A program made the translations under genes and the position numbers. Below are positions 3,988 to 7,319 of a stretch of DNA of 7,319 nucleotides, one piece after another; position 1 is the stretch's first letter, and each line of letters starts with the position of its first letter. The stretch is from an uncultured Clostridiaceae bacterium. GTDB lineage: Bacteria > Bacillota > Clostridia > TANB77 > CAG-465. The notes beneath the pieces are model-generated. The model was not told the origin of the DNA. It did not search any database and saw only the letters and a program-made list of their open reading frames with translations. The DNA lies in assembly GCA_964371585.1 (NCBI GenBank), contig CAYJMD010000006.1, positions 12,831 through 20,149 on the forward strand. The letters run 5' to 3'.

Positions 3988-4036
3988 AACCTTTAAGAGT
4001 ATAGAGAATATACTTTCTTAAAGGTTTATTTTTTTA
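3988..4036. terminator. Bidirectional rho-independent terminator between the convergent fdx and pyruvyl transferase genes
   Basis: AACCTTTAAGA (3988-3998) pairs perfectly with TCTTAAAGGTT (4016-4026). An inner helix GTATA (3999-4003) / TATAC (4009-4013) has a GAGAA loop. On the + strand a T-tract TTTATTTTTTT (4025-4035) follows. On the - strand the same hairpin is followed by CATTTTT (complement of 3981-3987). The T-tract overlaps the stop codon of the - strand gene. Confidence 0.85.
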
Positions 4037-5083
4037 TTTAATTAATTTATTAAATGAGTTAAAATGTTTTGCAGAGTCCTTTGATAATGAATTTATAATT
4101 TCAGAATTAGTTTCTTGATATGAATTTATATCTAATAAATCATCACTTGTAATATTTTCTAAATTAATATATGAACTAGTTATTTTAGTATCATTTACTA
4201 CAGTAAGAAGTTTATTGCTATATGATAGTACTATAAATTTATGTCCAAGCTTACTTGATAGTATCATAGAATGAAATCTAGAACATATCATAAACTCCAT
4301 TTTTGAATAGATATTCATAAAATCATCTAAAGAAGAATTATAATCTACAATGTTTATTTTAGCAGAATAGCTGTCTGGTAAAATCTCTATAAGATTATTA
4401 CAAGCCTCTACATCACCTTCTGCATCACAAAATGGAAATAAATATATAGAATAACCATCATCTATGTATTTTTTTATATTGTTTGCTAAACACTTTAAAT
4501 AATCTTTAGTAACATGTTGTAAATTGGATTTTTTCTTTAAATCTATCATTGAAATTCCTATTGATTTTTTTATTGTCTCAGTGTCATTAATATCTAAACC
4601 AAATACAATATCCGGTGCTAGTGATACATTATTTAAATCGCTGAATATATCAAAAGAATATTTATCTCTAAAACAAGTATGAGTTACTGTTTTTAGTACA
4701 TTTCTTGTTAAATTTAAGTATTCTTCAGTTTTGTATGGACCGAAGTTTGTTCCCATATAGAAAAAAGGAACATTCAAAGCTTTAGCTTCTTTAACAAAAT
4801 CATATAAAGTTTGTAATCTATTTATAGAATTTGGAGCTTCAATGAATAGTGATCCACCAATATATATGATTGAATCATAATTTTGTATAATACTTGTATC
4901 AAAAACAAATTTTTTGTTTATAATAGTTAAGTTAGTTATATTATTAATAGCAAAAGCATCATCTATATTTTCTACATAAATAGAAAAATTAATATTAGGA
5001 TACTTTTTAGTAATCATAGAAATGAATAAATCATCGCCTACATTTGCTTTAGTATATGCAATTAAAAGAACATTTTTTATCAA
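4034..5083 (-). CDS. Polysaccharide pyruvyl transferase family protein (PS_pyruv_trans / CsaB-WcaK-like)
   Basis: N-terminal motif is LLIAYTKANVGDDLF (the family NxGD[DE] motif). Mid motif is IIYIGGSLF. C-terminal motif is ICSRFHSMILSSKLGHKFIVLSYSNKL (the family R[LF]H motif followed by a Y/S-x-x-K block). I moved the start from the ORF-track 5098 to the TTG at 5083. The codons at 5098-5090 (TTG GAG GCG) themselves contain GGAGG (5096-5092), which sits 8 nt before the in-frame TTG at 5083. Confidence 0.75.
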   Translation of the reverse strand: MIKNVLLIAYTKANVGDDLFISMITKKYPNINFSIYVENIDDAFAINNITNLTIINKKFVFDTSIIQNYDSIIYIGGSLFIEAPNSINRLQTLYDFVKEAKALNVPFFYMGTNFGPYKTEEYLNLTRNVLKTVTHTCFRDKYSFDIFSDLNNVSLAPDIVFGLDINDTETIKKSIGISMIDLKKKSNLQHVTKDYLKCLANNIKKYIDDGYSIYLFPFCDAEGDVEACNNLIEILPDSYSAKINIVDYNSSLDDFMNIYSKMEFMICSRFHSMILSSKLGHKFIVLSYSNKLLTVVNDTKITSSYINLENITSDDLLDINSYQETNSEIINSLSKDSAKHFNSFNKLIK

Positions 5084-5103
5084 AATAATCGCCTCCAAAC
5101 CAT

Positions 5104-5132
5104 ATTATAGCATGGCACAATAGATAAATCAA
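5104..5132 (-). promoter_or_regulatory. Putative sigma-A promoter for the pyruvyl transferase gene
   Basis: The - strand reads TTGATT (5132-5127), a 17-nt spacer, then TGcTATAAT (-10 hexamer at 5109-5104) with an extended -10 TG. The predicted transcription start is around 5097, so the leader would be very short and begin at the SD. Confidence 0.5.
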
Positions 5133-5152
5133 TGGTATTATTTAAAAGAAAT

Positions 5153-5183
5153 AAAAAAACACTCTAATCAATTGATTAAAGTG
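5153..5183 (-). terminator. Rho-independent terminator of the 66-aa gene (cassette terminator copy 1)
   Basis: The - strand RNA folds as CACUUUAAUC-AAUU-GAUUAGAGUG (10 bp including one G.U) followed by UUUUUUU (complement of 5153-5159). It lies 12 nt after the stop at 5195. It is the same CAATTG-centred hairpin as at 5538-5572 and 6511-6544. Confidence 0.8.
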
Positions 5184-5194
5184 CTTTAATGATT

Positions 5195-5395
5195 TTACTC
5201 GAAGTCAAACCCATCAGCAATATCATTAAAAAATGATGAGCTTCCAAATAGGTTGTCATTGTTGCTAAATTCAGACATTGGTAATTCTGATTGGGCTGCA
5301 TTTTGGAAAATGTTTCCAATAATGTCCATAGTTAATACCACGGCTAAAATAGAAATCAGAAGGATAATTGTTGTTGTAATAATTGCTTTTTTCAT
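5195..5395 (-). CDS. Small (66 aa) N-terminally anchored or secreted protein; minimal member of the cassette array
   Basis: It is preceded by the conserved leader, with GGAGG 7 nt before the ATG. It starts MKK plus a hydrophobic helix (AIITTTIILLISILAVVL) followed by TMD, as in the two larger paralogs (ETMDQ). The tail is acidic and S/F/N/D-rich. It has its own promoter and terminator. Two overlapping ORF-track entries were rejected in its favour. Confidence 0.6.
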   Translation of the reverse strand: MKKAIITTTIILLISILAVVLTMDIIGNIFQNAAQSELPMSEFSNNDNLFGSSSFFNDIADGFDFE

Positions 5396-5482
5396 TGTAA
5401 TACCTCCAAGTATTAAAAAAATTTTGTTGATACAAATCTCTAATCTTTATCAATTGTTAAAGATTTATATATATGTTTTTCA
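5396..5482 (-). promoter_or_regulatory. Conserved 5' leader, copy A (5387-5465 is identical to 7237-7315)
   Basis: The mRNA-sense core is AATCTTTAACAATTGATAAAGATTAGAGATTTGTATCAACAAAATTTTTTTAATACTTGGAGGTATTACA-ATG. It contains a 24-nt near-palindrome (5442-5465) and the SD. The upper boundary is the transcription start predicted about 7 nt downstream of the -10 box. Confidence 0.7.
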
Positions 5483-5488
5483 CTATTA

Positions 5489-5517
5489 ATTATACCATAT
5501 TTTAAACATTATGTCAA
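5489..5517 (-). promoter_or_regulatory. Consensus sigma-A promoter of the 66-aa cassette
   Basis: The - strand reads TTGACA (5517-5512), a 17-nt spacer, then TGgTATAAT (-10 at 5494-5489). Both hexamers are perfect and an extended -10 TG is present. Confidence 0.8.
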
Positions 5518-5537
5518 CTATCATGAGATTTGTTGAA

Positions 5538-5572
5538 CAAATAAAAACACCCTAATCAATTGATTAGAGTGT
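5538..5572 (-). terminator. Rho-independent terminator of the 262-aa gene (cassette terminator copy 2)
   Basis: The - strand RNA folds as ACACUCUAAUC-AAUU-GAUUAGGGUGU (11 bp including one G.U) followed by UUUUUAUUU. It starts 7 nt after the stop codon (5579-5581). The 40-nt block 5538-5577 is identical to 6510-6549. Confidence 0.85.
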
Positions 5573-5578
5573 TTAATT

Positions 5579-6367
5579 TTATCCAAAATTAACATTGTCA
5601 TCTGCATAAAGCAAATCCTCAGTTGGTTCTGGTTTTGGTTCTGGAGTTGGTTTAGAACTAGATTCAGGTTTAGGACTTGGACTTAAAAATTCGTCAATAA
5701 CTTCATCTAGAGTAGTATTTGAATTATTTGTTCCAAAGAATACATCATTCCACTGTTCAACAGTTTTAATGTCTTCAATGATAAGAGTCCATATATATTT
5801 TGGATCACCATCAAAAACATATTCATCCTCTGGTACTAATGATTCAATACAATCAGTACGTACAAAGCCTAAATATTTACCTGAGTCATCACGTTCAGCA
5901 ATGTAGTACTGATCTTTACCTTCGTGGTAGACCCTGTATACTTTGTGAGTAATCTCTCTAGATGGATTACAAGTGCTACAATATTCAGAGCTAGAGCCTA
6001 TGTGAACACAAGAGATTACAGCTGACTCCATTTCTGCTAAAAAAATTTCTTGCTCAAATGGAATTTCTGGTTCGGGTTCGGGTTTTGGAGTTGCGTCAGT
6101 ATATTTTTCTATTTCTATAGGATCCTTTATAGAATGAACACAAGGGCCTGAAGAAGATTCATAACTATAAAAGTTTTCTGTATATGGATCTATGTTAATA
6201 GCATCTAACGCTAAAGCTTCATTAGATTGATCTATGTTAATAGTACCTAACTCTAAAGCTTCATTAGATTGATCCATTGTTTCAATTGGTGTAGTTCCCA
6301 ATAAGTAGCCCGTACCAAATGATGCGATTAGTGATAGTGCGATTGTTAATGTAGTAAGTTTTTTCAT
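5579..6367 (-). CDS. Signal-anchored or secreted protein, 262 aa, paralog of 6595-7245 (unrecognised family)
   Basis: GGAGG lies 7 nt before the ATG. It starts MKKLTT plus a hydrophobic helix, then the juxtamembrane motif GTTPIETMDQSNEALE. A 14-aa tandem repeat and PKPEPEPE / PTPEPKPEP linkers follow. It carries the Cys motif CVHIGSSSEYCSTCNP. The C-terminal domain YRVYHEGKDQYYIAE...SLVPEDEYVF...PKYIWTLIIEDI...WN...SNTTLDEVIDEFL is shared with the next gene. Confidence 0.85.
   Translation of the reverse strand: MKKLTTLTIALSLIASFGTGYLLGTTPIETMDQSNEALELGTINIDQSNEALALDAINIDPYTENFYSYESSSGPCVHSIKDPIEIEKYTDATPKPEPEPEIPFEQEIFLAEMESAVISCVHIGSSSEYCSTCNPSREITHKVYRVYHEGKDQYYIAERDDSGKYLGFVRTDCIESLVPEDEYVFDGDPKYIWTLIIEDIKTVEQWNDVFFGTNNSNTTLDEVIDEFLSPSPKPESSSKPTPEPKPEPTEDLLYADDNVNFG
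6187..6274 (-). repeat. In-frame 42-nt tandem duplication (two units) inside the 262-aa gene
   Basis: Unit 6189-6230 differs from unit 6231-6272 at 3 of 42 positions. They encode DQSNEALELGTINI and DQSNEALALDAINI. Confidence 0.9.
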
Positions 6368-6455
6368 TGTAATACCTCCAAGTATTAAAAAAAATTTTGT
6401 TGATACAAATCTCTAATCTTTATCAATTGTTAAAGATTCATATATTTAATGTACA
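6368..6455 (-). promoter_or_regulatory. Conserved 5' leader, copy B
   Basis: 6349-6443 matches 7227-7319 except for one extra A in the homopolymer run (A8 at 6387-6394, versus A7 in copies A and C). The near-palindrome is at 6415-6438. Confidence 0.7.
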
Positions 6456-6461
6456 ATATTA

Positions 6462-6490
6462 ATTATATCACATTTAATGTGTTATGTCAA
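6462..6490 (-). promoter_or_regulatory. Consensus sigma-A promoter of the 262-aa cassette
   Basis: The - strand reads TTGACA (6490-6485), a 17-nt spacer, then TGaTATAAT (-10 at 6467-6462). Both hexamers are perfect and an extended -10 TG is present. The hexamers are conserved with copy A while the spacer and flanks have diverged. Confidence 0.8.
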
Positions 6491-6510
6491 CTAGTTTGGT
6501 AGAGTTTTGC

Positions 6511-6544
6511 AAATAAAAACACCCTAATCAATTGATTAGAGTGT
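6511..6544 (-). terminator. Rho-independent terminator of the 216-aa gene (cassette terminator copy 3)
   Basis: It has the same hairpin and U-tract as 5538-5572 (40 nt identical). It lies about 50 nt downstream of the stop at 6595. Confidence 0.8.
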
Positions 6545-6594
6545 TTAATGTTTAAGTTTAAAATTTATCTTGTATAAGCTAATTCTTTAAACAG

Positions 6595-7245
6595 TTATAG
6601 GTTTGGTTTTTCATTTGAAATTGAAACTGACAGAGGATCAATTATATTATCCAAAGTCAAAAAATGTTCAATGATTTCGTCTAATGTGTTATTTGAACCA
6701 TTCTTACCATTAAATTCACTATTCCATTTTTCGATAGTGATAATGTCTTTAATAATATATGTCCATGAGTATTTTGGATTACTATTAAAAACATAGTCTT
6801 CTTCTGGAACTAATGAATAAAAAAGACCATTAAACTCTAAAGGTCGCATTGAATCACTATATTCTGCAATATAATACTTGTCTTCACCTTCATGGTAAAG
6901 TCTATATAGCTTGCAAGTAATTTCTTTAGGTGAATTGTGTTCTAGGTAATCTTCATCACTATCACTTACATGTAGAGATTCAGAAAGAAACGGATCCACT
7001 TGAGGTTTTGGATTGCATTCTTTGCAATCATCAGAGCTCTCACCTATATGCATACAGTCATCAAGATAAAGATTTGATGTAGGTGTAGATTCTAACTCGG
7101 GCTCTAAAGAGAGACTAATAGTGTTAAACTCTAAAGTTTTGTTTGTTTGGTCCATAGTTTCAAGTTGTGTGGTTCCCCATAAGCAAATAACTGCTAATAT
7201 GGAGACTGCGCAGAGGATGATCATTGATGTAGTAAGTTTTTTCAT
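6595..7245 (-). CDS. Signal-anchored or secreted protein, 216 aa, paralog of 5579-6367 (unrecognised family)
   Basis: It has the same SD and leader. It starts MKKLTT plus a hydrophobic helix, then GTTQLETMDQTNKTLE. It carries the Cys motif CMHIGESSDDCKECNP. The C-terminal domain is YRLYHEGEDKYYIAE...SLVPEEDYVF...PKYSWTYIIKDI...WN...SNNTLDEIIEHFL. Confidence 0.85.
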   Translation of the reverse strand: MKKLTTSMIILCAVSILAVICLWGTTQLETMDQTNKTLEFNTISLSLEPELESTPTSNLYLDDCMHIGESSDDCKECNPKPQVDPFLSESLHVSDSDEDYLEHNSPKEITCKLYRLYHEGEDKYYIAEYSDSMRPLEFNGLFYSLVPEEDYVFNSNPKYSWTYIIKDIITIEKWNSEFNGKNGSNNTLDEIIEHFLTLDNIIDPLSVSISNEKPNL

Positions 7246-7319
7246 TGTAATACCTCCAAGTATTAAAAAAATTTTGTTGATACAAATCTCTAATCTTTAT
7301 CAATTGTTAAAGATTCATA
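7246..7319 (-). promoter_or_regulatory. Conserved 5' leader, copy C (truncated by the window end; its promoter is off-window)
   Basis: 7237-7315 is identical to 5387-5465. The near-palindrome is at 7292-7315. Confidence 0.7.

What the first reader, a model, noticed from the sequence alone, without database searches (positions are those of the whole stretch)
6368..6455. Near-invariant ~70-nt leader with mutually exclusive helices and a 24-nt near-palindrome: candidate cis-regulatory RNA or operator
The leader core (mRNA sense) is AAUCUUUAACAAUUGAUAAAGAUUAGAGAUUUGUAUCAACAAAAUUUUUUUAAUACUUGGAGGUAUUACA-AUG, present at 5396-5465, 6368-6438 and 7246-7315. Nucleotides 1-8 (AAUCUUUA) can pair with 17-24 (UAAAGAUU). 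At the DNA level this is a 24-bp palindrome with only one asymmetric base pair. Nucleotides 1-9 can instead pair with 23-31 (UUAGAGAUU, one G.U). Nucleotides 13-18 (UUGAUA) can pair with 34-39 (UAUCAA), which excludes the first helix. UAAUAC and GUAUUA form a 6-bp stem that presents the SD (UUGGAG) in its loop, just before the start codon. A U7/U8 run lies between these elements. The palindrome sits about +17 to +41 relative to the predicted transcription start, which fits either a roadblock operator for a dimeric DNA-binding protein or an RNA switch, thermometer, or sRNA/protein docking site that co-regulates all cassettes. I do not recognise it as any known riboswitch or leader class. All helices are AU-rich and individually weak, so the structure is an inference.
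Basis: partly seen in the sequence, partly recalled or inferred. Interest (0 to 1): 0.75.

Follow-up and report, generated by a model that had tools for sequence, protein, structure and literature searches.

The report
Invariant leader shared by tandem cassettes
Three neighbouring genes for secreted or membrane proteins of unknown function each carry the same perfect promoter, the same ~80-base leader and the same terminator; the leader is a real, conserved control or expression module, but with no relatives in any searchable database I could not tell whether it acts as folded RNA or as a protein-binding DNA site.

Summary
A ~79-nt block ending at ATGAAAAAA occurs three times on the minus strand. 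The copies differ only by T7 versus T8 in a U run and by one G/A just upstream. Flanking spacers are about 43% identical and the two paralogous ORFs about 44% identical at the amino-acid level. Each copy follows a 12/12 TTGACA-17-TGnTATAAT promoter at a fixed 23-nt distance.

The palindrome hairpin reaches 2-9% and helix 13-18/34-39 about 0%. The SD hairpin is weak.

No Rfam family matches. Covariation cannot be tested: the cassette proteins are ORFans, true leader copies were found nowhere else, and the syntenic regions fetched from three relatives lack the cassettes.

My best reading (0.4) is a selected high-expression 5'UTR module: a 5' hairpin plus a strong SD, like the aprE leader. The rivals are a repressor operator (0.3), gene conversion (0.15), an RNA switch and a recombination site. 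The finding is ordinary in kind and lineage-specific in sequence.

The parts
6368..6454 (-). Full predicted 5' leader of cassette 2 (262-aa gene), from the predicted start (G about 7-8 nt after the -10) to the base before ATG
   Evidence: Promoter scan and sequence. The transcription start is inferred, not mapped.
6359..6443 (-). Invariant block, copy 2 (T8 variant): AUAUG...AUGAAAAAA
   Evidence: Alignments; covariance model hit of 104 bits
5387..5470 (-). Invariant block, copy 1 (T7; A instead of G before the palindrome), upstream of the 66-aa gene
7237..7319 (-). Invariant block, copy 3 (T7), upstream of the 216-aa gene; cut by the window end, promoter not visible
6415..6438 (.). 24-bp near-palindrome AATCTTTAACAATTGATAAAGATT (11 of 12 symmetric); same at 5442-5465 and 7292-7315. 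Candidate operator
6403..6443 (-). Dominant predicted RNA element: 14-bp hairpin AUAUGAAUCUUUAA / UUAGAGAUUUGUAU with a 13-nt loop; same at 5430-5470 and, cut, at 7280-7319
   Evidence: Pair probability 0.7-0.98, -8.8/-9.7 kcal/mol, z -3.1/-4.2, and forms only on the sense strand. The single variable site keeps pairing, G.U to A-U.
6387..6394 (-). U8 run (U7 in copies 1 and 3), part of the AU-rich linker CAACAAAAU(7-8) between the two hairpins
6370..6387 (-). SD hairpin UAAUACU-UGGA-GGUAUUA; GGA of GGAGG in the loop; same at 5398-5415 and 7248-7265
   Evidence: Probability 0.74-0.99 but only -3.0 kcal/mol, z -1.1 for the domain
6462..6490 (-). Promoter of cassette 2: TTGACA-17-TG-n-TATAAT, 12/12
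5489..5517 (-). Promoter of cassette 1: TTGACA-17-TG-n-TATAAT, 12/12; same 23-nt distance from -10 to palindrome
6517..6546 (-). Intrinsic terminator of cassette 3, 26 nt upstream of the cassette 2 -35; identical copy at 5545-5574; diverged copy at 5156-5187
   Evidence: -15.1 kcal/mol
5579..6367 (-). 262-aa ORFan with an N-terminal hydrophobic segment (cassette 2)
6595..7245 (-). 216-aa ORFan paralogue, 40-44% identical to the 262-aa protein (cassette 3)
5195..5395 (-). 66-aa ORFan with an N-terminal hydrophobic segment (cassette 1); resembles the other two only at the N-terminus

Best explanation
The leader is the transcribed part of a shared expression module: a consensus sigma-A promoter, an ~87-nt 5'UTR and a strong terminator. 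Selection has kept this module in front of each gene of a fast-diverging, lineage-specific family of secreted or membrane-anchored proteins.

I propose that the leader acts mainly as RNA. A 14-bp AU/GU hairpin lies near the 5' end. An AU-rich linker follows it. The GGAGG Shine-Dalgarno sequence sits in a small hairpin loop 7 nt before AUG. Together these would give every cassette the same high mRNA stability and translation initiation, in the manner of the Bacillus aprE-type 5' stabilising leader.

**Shown**
- the repeats and their identity
- the mosaic pattern of conservation
- the promoter and terminator matches
- the predicted dominance and strand specificity of the hairpin

**Inferred**
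- the transcription start
- that the hairpin forms in vivo
- that it affects stability or translation

The embedded 24-bp palindrome is not explained by this model. It may be an additional operator.
For: - **Extent of invariance.** The invariant block runs from the 5' base of the 14-bp helix to the third codon, about 85 nt. It is not centred on the 24-bp palindrome.
- **Conserved blocks match functional elements.** These are the terminator, the -35, the extended -10 and the leader-to-ATG stretch. The stretches between them are about 43% identical, by my count from the alignment. The ORFs are old duplicates, with 49 of 86 codons identical at identical residues. This pattern fits purifying selection better than one gene-conversion tract.
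- **The hairpin dominates the predicted ensemble.** Its probability is 0.9-0.98.
- **The hairpin is more stable than shuffles.** z is -3.1 and -4.2, and at most 0.6% of shuffles fold as well.
- **The hairpin is strand specific.** It contains 2-3 G.U pairs, so it forms only in the mRNA sense: -8.8/-9.7 kcal/mol against -5.3 for the antisense strand.
- **The one substitution keeps a pair.** It is G.U to A-U.
- **The only other change is in a linker.** It is a 1-nt length change in the U run between the two hairpins.
- **The surrounding signals point to maximal expression.** The promoter is 12/12 with an extended -10, the SD is GGAGG with 7-nt spacing, and the terminators are -15 kcal/mol.
- **There is a precedent.** The aprE 5'UTR stem-loop plus its SD raises mRNA half-life from about 5 to more than 25 min (PMC11805744, citing Hambraeus 2000 and 2002; PMC3997798, ref. 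109).
Against: - There is no covariation. Thirteen of 14 pairs never vary.
- The whole-leader fold is only modestly better than shuffles, z -1.4 to -2.6.
- I chose the hairpin region after seeing the fold, so its z-score is flattering.
- The hairpin starts about 12 nt from the predicted 5' end. From my own knowledge, classic 5' stabilisers sit at or within a few nt of the end.
- Structure alone does not explain why the 13-nt loop and the 15-nt linker are also invariant.
- It also does not explain why the loop holds a perfect 8-nt second complement to the 5' arm, which is what creates the palindrome.
- The terminators are equally invariant, loop included. Some homogenising process may therefore be at work.
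Confidence: 0.4

Rival explanations
1. The 24-bp palindrome is an operator on the DNA. A dimeric helix-turn-helix repressor binds it at about +17 to +41 and blocks RNA polymerase, or blocks promoter escape, at all cassettes. A third half-site, TAGAGATT, abuts the palindrome. This would give co-ordinated on/off control of otherwise maximal promoters.
For: - The dyad has 11 of 12 Watson-Crick symmetric pairs through its centre, with no G.T pairs.
- The favoured RNA fold does not use its right arm, so the dyad is otherwise unexplained.
- The -10-to-palindrome distance is exactly 23 nt in both visible copies although that stretch has diverged in sequence.
- A 12/12 promoter with an extended -10 is the kind that usually needs repression (this step is inference).
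- Three half-sites AATCT(T/C)TA are arranged forward, reverse, reverse.
Against: - Invariance extends about 45 nt beyond the palindrome, to the ATG.
- No regulator gene lies in the window.
- No extra half-sites occur at other promoters in the window.
- The palindrome resembles no operator consensus that I could recall. That is a lead from memory, not a test.
- A palindrome of this quality arises by chance in about 9% of simulated windows.
Confidence: 0.3
2. The identity is a product of concerted evolution, meaning short-patch gene conversion between the tandem intergenic units, or of recent spread of the module. The leader would then have no function beyond carrying a good RBS.
For: - There are zero substitutions in 79 nt, including loop and linker positions that structure would not constrain.
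- The terminators of cassettes 2 and 3 are 100% identical over about 40 nt, loop included.
- Identity between cassettes 2 and 3 runs 18 nt into the coding region.
- Tandem direct repeats are good substrates for conversion.
- S. aureus lpl tandem paralogues evolve through recombination at conserved segments (PMC2568036).
Against: - The intergenic alignment is a mosaic. Saturated stretches (about 43% identity) of 11-17 nt lie between identical blocks. Several independent conversion patches would have to coincide exactly with the terminator, the -35, the -10 and the leader.
- The hairpin is non-random and strand specific.
Confidence: 0.15
3. The leader is a bistable RNA switch. The 5' arm AAUCUUUA chooses between two tandem 3' arms, UAAAGAUU and UAGAGAUU. 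The choice would be set by a ligand, temperature, a small RNA or a protein, and would alter the downstream U run or SD region.
For: - The two alternative 3' arms are a 7-nt tandem repeat, and a second perfect 8-nt complement inside a 13-nt loop is unlikely by chance (sequence).
- During transcription the palindrome hairpin would form first.
- When that hairpin is enforced, a 5-bp mini-hairpin lands next to the U run.
Against: - The alternative state is 3 kcal/mol worse and holds 2-9% of the ensemble. Helix 13-18/34-39 holds about 0%.
- No terminator-like site is called in the leader.
- Exposure of the SD's GGA does not change from 20 to 42 C.
- No Rfam family matches.
- The all-AU helices offer no plausible ligand pocket (inference).
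Confidence: 0.08
4. The palindrome is the core site of a tyrosine recombinase (arms flanking a 6-8-bp centre). The cassettes would be deleted, duplicated or shuffled at the leader, as in the Mycoplasma vpma/vsp systems.
For: - In vpma genes, the 72 nt before the start codon differ at no more than 5 positions, contain the Xer1 recombination site, and are followed by conserved signal-peptide codons (PMC2268961). The leader here has the same length, position and degree of invariance.
- The 8-8-8 or 9-6-9 architecture fits such sites (my own knowledge).
Against: - Each visible cassette has its own complete promoter.
- All three genes point the same way.
- The window contains no recombinase gene.
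- The centre CAATTG is itself symmetric, so the site would lack direction.
Confidence: 0.05

Closest known systems
Bacillus subtilis aprE leader and other Firmicute 5' RNA-stabilising elements (cryIIIA STAB-SD, S-layer gene leaders)
   Same: A 5'UTR of a strongly expressed secreted-protein gene combines a stem-loop in its 5' part with a strong SD. In aprE both are needed for long half-life (PMC11805744; PMC3997798, ref. 109).
   Different: There is no sequence similarity. The hairpin here begins about 12 nt from the predicted 5' end rather than at it. Its stability effect is untested. It also contains a perfect DNA-type palindrome.
Conserved 5'UTR and signal-peptide region of Mycoplasma agalactiae vpma / M. 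bovis vsp genes (Xer1/Mbr recombination sites)
   Same: About 70 nt directly upstream of the start codon are almost invariant across a family of otherwise divergent surface-protein genes, and the first signal-peptide codons are conserved (PMC2268961).
   Different: The vpma/vsp loci have one promoter, genes in both orientations and an adjacent recombinase. Here every cassette has its own promoter and terminator, all genes are in one orientation, and no recombinase is visible.
Staphylococcus aureus lpl tandem paralogue cluster
   Same: Both are tandem paralogues for exported proteins in which the intergenic region and adjoining ORF ends are conserved units while the rest diversifies (PMC2568036).
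   Different: In lpl the recombining conserved segment is inside the ORF. Here the conserved segments are non-coding: terminator, promoter hexamers and leader.
Roadblock or promoter-proximal operators of dimeric repressors, such as xylO/XylR in Bacillus and the erp operator of Borrelia paralogue families (my own knowledge)
   Same: A dyad-symmetric site of 20-25 bp lies just downstream of or beside a strong promoter, and is repeated in front of each member of a gene family.
   Different: No cognate regulator is known and no binding has been shown. Conservation extends far beyond the dyad.

Membership tests
Any Rfam family (riboswitches, leaders, thermometers, sRNAs) | Covariance-model score at or above the family's gathering threshold | tested here: not met
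   The whole window scanned at E<=10 gave nothing in the leader; the sub-threshold Yfr10 hits are the terminators. The leader alone, with lax filters, gave only a 13.9-bit chance hit against a gathering score of 127.
aprE-type 5' mRNA stabiliser | Stem-loop at or very near the 5' end of the transcript | tested here: inconclusive
   A 14-bp hairpin is predicted with P 0.9-0.98, but it starts about 12 nt after the predicted start. The transcription start is inferred from the -10 only.
aprE-type 5' mRNA stabiliser | Strong ribosome binding site in the leader | tested here: met
   GGAGG lies 7 nt before ATG in all three copies, with its GGA unpaired.
aprE-type 5' mRNA stabiliser | The leader confers a long mRNA half-life | not testable with these tools
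   Needs rifampicin chase experiments.
Repressor operator | Dyad symmetry of about 16-26 bp at a fixed position relative to the promoter | tested here: met
   11 of 12 symmetric pairs; 23 nt from the -10 in both visible copies.
Repressor operator | A cognate DNA-binding protein, usually encoded nearby or with a matching regulon | tested here: inconclusive
   No regulator lies among the nine genes of the window. The rest of the 79-kb contig could not be fetched.
RNA thermometer (fourU/ROSE type) | SD base-paired at low temperature and released on warming | tested here: not met
   GGA of the SD is at least 0.98 unpaired at 20, 25, 30, 37 and 42 C; only the last two G are paired.
Terminator-antiterminator attenuator or riboswitch expression platform | Stable hairpin directly followed by a U run inside the leader | tested here: not met
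   No terminator-like site is called in the leader. The U run lies 8 nt after the hairpin, and the alternative 5-bp mini-hairpin is negligible.
Vpma/Vsp-type recombination-site leader | Near-invariant ~70 nt 5'UTR plus conserved signal-peptide start across the family | tested here: met
   compare PMC2268961.
Vpma/Vsp-type recombination-site leader | A single promoter serving silent, promoterless genes through inversion | tested here: not met
   Two complete 12/12 promoters are visible, and all three genes lie on the same strand.
Vpma/Vsp-type recombination-site leader | Adjacent tyrosine recombinase gene | tested here: inconclusive
   None is present in the window. The flanks are unavailable.

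The most novel reading that the evidence does not exclude
The leader is a new, lineage-specific three-arm regulatory element. One 5' arm can pair with either of two tandem 3' arms, and the first pairing doubles as a DNA palindrome. A dedicated trans-acting factor (protein or small RNA) reads this element to switch a whole family of ORFan secreted proteins on or off together. Dense overlapping DNA and RNA constraints would then explain why all ~80 nt are invariant.
Probability: 0.1. Interest if true: 0.6.

Novelty: new member of a known kind. Interest (0 to 1): 0.3.

Why it matters
If the module works as proposed, it is a compact natural expression cassette for an AT-rich, uncultured Bacillota lineage: a consensus promoter, a stabilising leader, a strong RBS and a strong terminator. 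It also marks a small family of rapidly diverging exported ORFan proteins that the cell expresses in the same way.

It is a clean example of footprinting between paralogous copies. Functional non-coding blocks stand out because the DNA between them has diverged to saturation. It does not open a long-standing question, and without further copies its mechanism stays unresolved.

Tried and rejected
**Searches for other copies**
The pattern matches the conserved NusA KH-domain coding sequence (SLAIGKEG) and other coding DNA.
- The 24-nt palindrome found nothing in the metagenome and viral scans.
- GATTAGAGATTTGTATCAAC found nothing in the viral scan and gave one chance hit in a GC-rich metagenome contig.
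- The SD block matched only a C. botulinum phage-plasmid gene, whose upstream region is not homologous.
- blastn against phages and plasmids found nothing significant.

**Protein route to homologous leaders**
- All three cassette proteins hit only themselves, or each other, among 5.8 billion and 1.84 billion proteins.
- They match no Pfam, NCBIfam or PHROG family.

**Fetching the source contig**
- Exact-protein look-ups failed four times.

**Relatives**
- The nearest RicT homologues are 62-67% identical.
- The loci fetched for three of them keep the metG-sipS-holB-ricT-ferredoxin order.
- None of these loci has the cassettes, a repeated intergenic module, or an nhmmer or covariance-model hit.

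**Structure prediction**
- The AlphaFold model of the 216-aa protein had a mean pLDDT of 34 and was unusable, so I ran no fold search.

**Rejected from the sequence alone (from memory, not tested)**
- Matches to the Fur, PerR, CodY, cre, Rex, CIRCE, ComK, TnrA and PhoP boxes
- TRAP, HutP or CsrA multi-site binding: there is only one GGA and one UAG
- A translated upstream ORF: no SD precedes the TTG
- An antisense promoter in the leader: none was called

Full report
**Anatomy**

The window has 27.6% G+C. On the plus strand it carries the 3' part of metG, a signal peptidase I gene, holB, ricT/PSP1 and a 2x[4Fe-4S] ferredoxin gene. A polysaccharide pyruvyl transferase gene lies on the minus strand.

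Three tandem minus-strand cassettes follow:
- a 66-aa ORF (5195-5395)
- a 262-aa ORF (5579-6367)
- a 216-aa ORF (6595-7245)

The two larger proteins are paralogues, 40-44% identical, with hydrophobic N-termini. The 66-aa protein resembles them only at its N-terminus. None matches Pfam, NCBIfam or PHROGs.

Each cassette is a self-contained transcription unit:
- a 12/12 TTGACA-17-TATAAT promoter with an extended -10 TG (6490-6462 and 5517-5489; the third is beyond the window edge)
- the leader
- the ORF
- a 13-14-bp terminator (6546-6517, 5574-5545, 5187-5156)

**Check of the observation**

The identical block is somewhat longer than stated: 84-85 nt from AUAU(G/A)AAUC to AUGAAAAAA. It contains one G/A site and a T7/T8 length difference.

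The palindrome has 11 of 12 symmetric pairs. A single palindrome of that quality appears in about 9% of simulated windows. Three copies are far beyond chance. All four proposed helices can be drawn.

**Evidence for constraint**

An alignment of the two complete intergenic regions is a mosaic. These blocks are identical:
- the terminator with its U tract
- TAGTTGACATAA
- the extended -10 with its TAATA discriminator
- the leader through the third codon

The stretches between them are about 43% identical by my count, close to the roughly 30% expected for unrelated sequence of this composition. Their lengths are kept, at 17 nt and 23 nt.

In the paralogous ORFs, only 49 of 86 codons at identical residues are the same. 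The duplication is therefore old. The non-coding blocks are held either by selection or by several short conversion patches that happen to coincide with functional elements. I judge selection the simpler reading. However, the total invariance of loops and linkers, and of the terminator loop, keeps homogenisation alive as a rival.

**RNA level**

The whole-leader fold is only modestly better than shuffles, with z between -1.4 and -2.6. One element dominates the ensemble.
- Its pair probabilities are 0.7-0.98.
- Its energy is -8.8 and -9.7 kcal/mol, with z of -3.1 and -4.2.
- It contains 2-3 G.U pairs, so it forms only on the mRNA strand. The antisense strand falls back to the palindrome hairpin at -5.3 kcal/mol.
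- Its 5' edge coincides with the 5' edge of conservation.
- The only substitution among the copies is G.U to A-U within it.

The palindrome hairpin holds 2-9% of the ensemble, and helix 13-18/34-39 about 0%. The SD hairpin is 7 bp and -3.0 kcal/mol, no better than shuffles. It leaves GGA unpaired from 20 to 42 C. No terminator-like site lies in the leader. No Rfam family matches.

**DNA level**

The favoured RNA fold puts the right arm of the palindrome in its loop. The perfect Watson-Crick dyad is therefore unexplained by RNA structure alone. The two 3' arms form a 7-nt tandem repeat, TAAAGAT|TAGAGAT, which gives three half-sites. The dyad sits at a fixed 23 nt from the -10. These features fit an operator. 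But the window holds no regulator and no other half-sites, and conservation runs well beyond the dyad.

**Comparative evidence**

None could be obtained.
- The cassette proteins are ORFans.
- Every protein looked up from the window is a singleton at 90% identity, from one NCBI contig of 79,262 nt.
- That contig could not be fetched.
- My single scan of genome contigs was lost to a badly chosen pattern.
- Metagenome and viral scans found no true copy.
- The nearest RicT homologues are 62-67% identical. The loci fetched for three of them keep the housekeeping gene order but have a glycosyltransferase and valS where this genome has the pyruvyl transferase and the cassettes. They contain nothing like the leader.

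The structural claim therefore remains an inference. Thirteen of 14 pairs never vary.

**Verdict**

The finding is a real, lineage-specific promoter-leader module of a known general kind.

Most likely (0.4) it is a selected high-expression 5'UTR combining a 5' hairpin with a strong SD. The aprE leader is the precedent: there both elements set mRNA half-life (PMC11805744; PMC3997798).

An operator is nearly as likely (0.3) and could coexist with the RNA role. Gene conversion (0.15), a bistable switch (0.08) and a Vpma-like recombination site (0.05; PMC2268961) follow. The recombination model fails two of its defining features: a single promoter and opposed gene orientation.

The leader is new in sequence but ordinary in category, so its interest is low to moderate.

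Noticed in passing
5156-5187, 5545-5574, 6517-6546: All three cassette terminators keep the core TAATCAATTGATTA. The leader palindrome has the same centre, CAATTGAT, and the same C-AAUU-G loop. The sub-threshold Rfam Yfr10 hits are simply these terminators. The shared centre could be coincidence, common origin, or a common binding site.
   Followed up: partly
6196-6305: A 42-nt tandem repeat lies inside the 262-aa ORF. It encodes QSNEAL(E/A)L..INID twice (family D3).
   Followed up: no
window 6364-6389; L124 4950-4972, L127 1501-1526: The 23-26-nt SD and start block ATACTTGGAGGTATTACAATGAAAAA is identical to the ribosome binding site of a small exported hypothetical protein on Clostridium botulinum phage-plasmids. 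The upstream sequence there is unrelated.
   Followed up: partly
4034-7319 versus L120 11205-16851: After the ferredoxin gene, the relatives' loci carry a glycosyltransferase gene, a 62-aa gene and valS. In this genome the pyruvyl transferase gene and the cassette array occupy that position and look like a lineage-specific insertion.
   Followed up: partly
262-aa protein residues 120-135; 216-aa protein residues 65-79: Both paralogues share the cysteine motif C-x-H-I-G-x-S-S-x-x-C-x-x-C-N-P and a conserved C-terminal YR-x-YHEG-x-D-x-YYIAE ... SLVPE ... PKY-x-WT domain. Neither has any database relative.
   Followed up: no
5396-5453, 7246-7303, 6368-6426: A TTG-started frame inside the leader (MIKIRDLYQQNFF...) runs into the main ORF in the T7 copies. 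In the T8 copy it stops at TAA after 13 codons. No SD precedes the TTG, so it is probably not translated.
   Followed up: no
5099-5135: The pyruvyl transferase gene has its own TTGATT-17-TATAAT promoter with TG. Its leader is only about 15 nt and its start is probably a TTG, in contrast to the ~87-nt cassette leaders.
   Followed up: no
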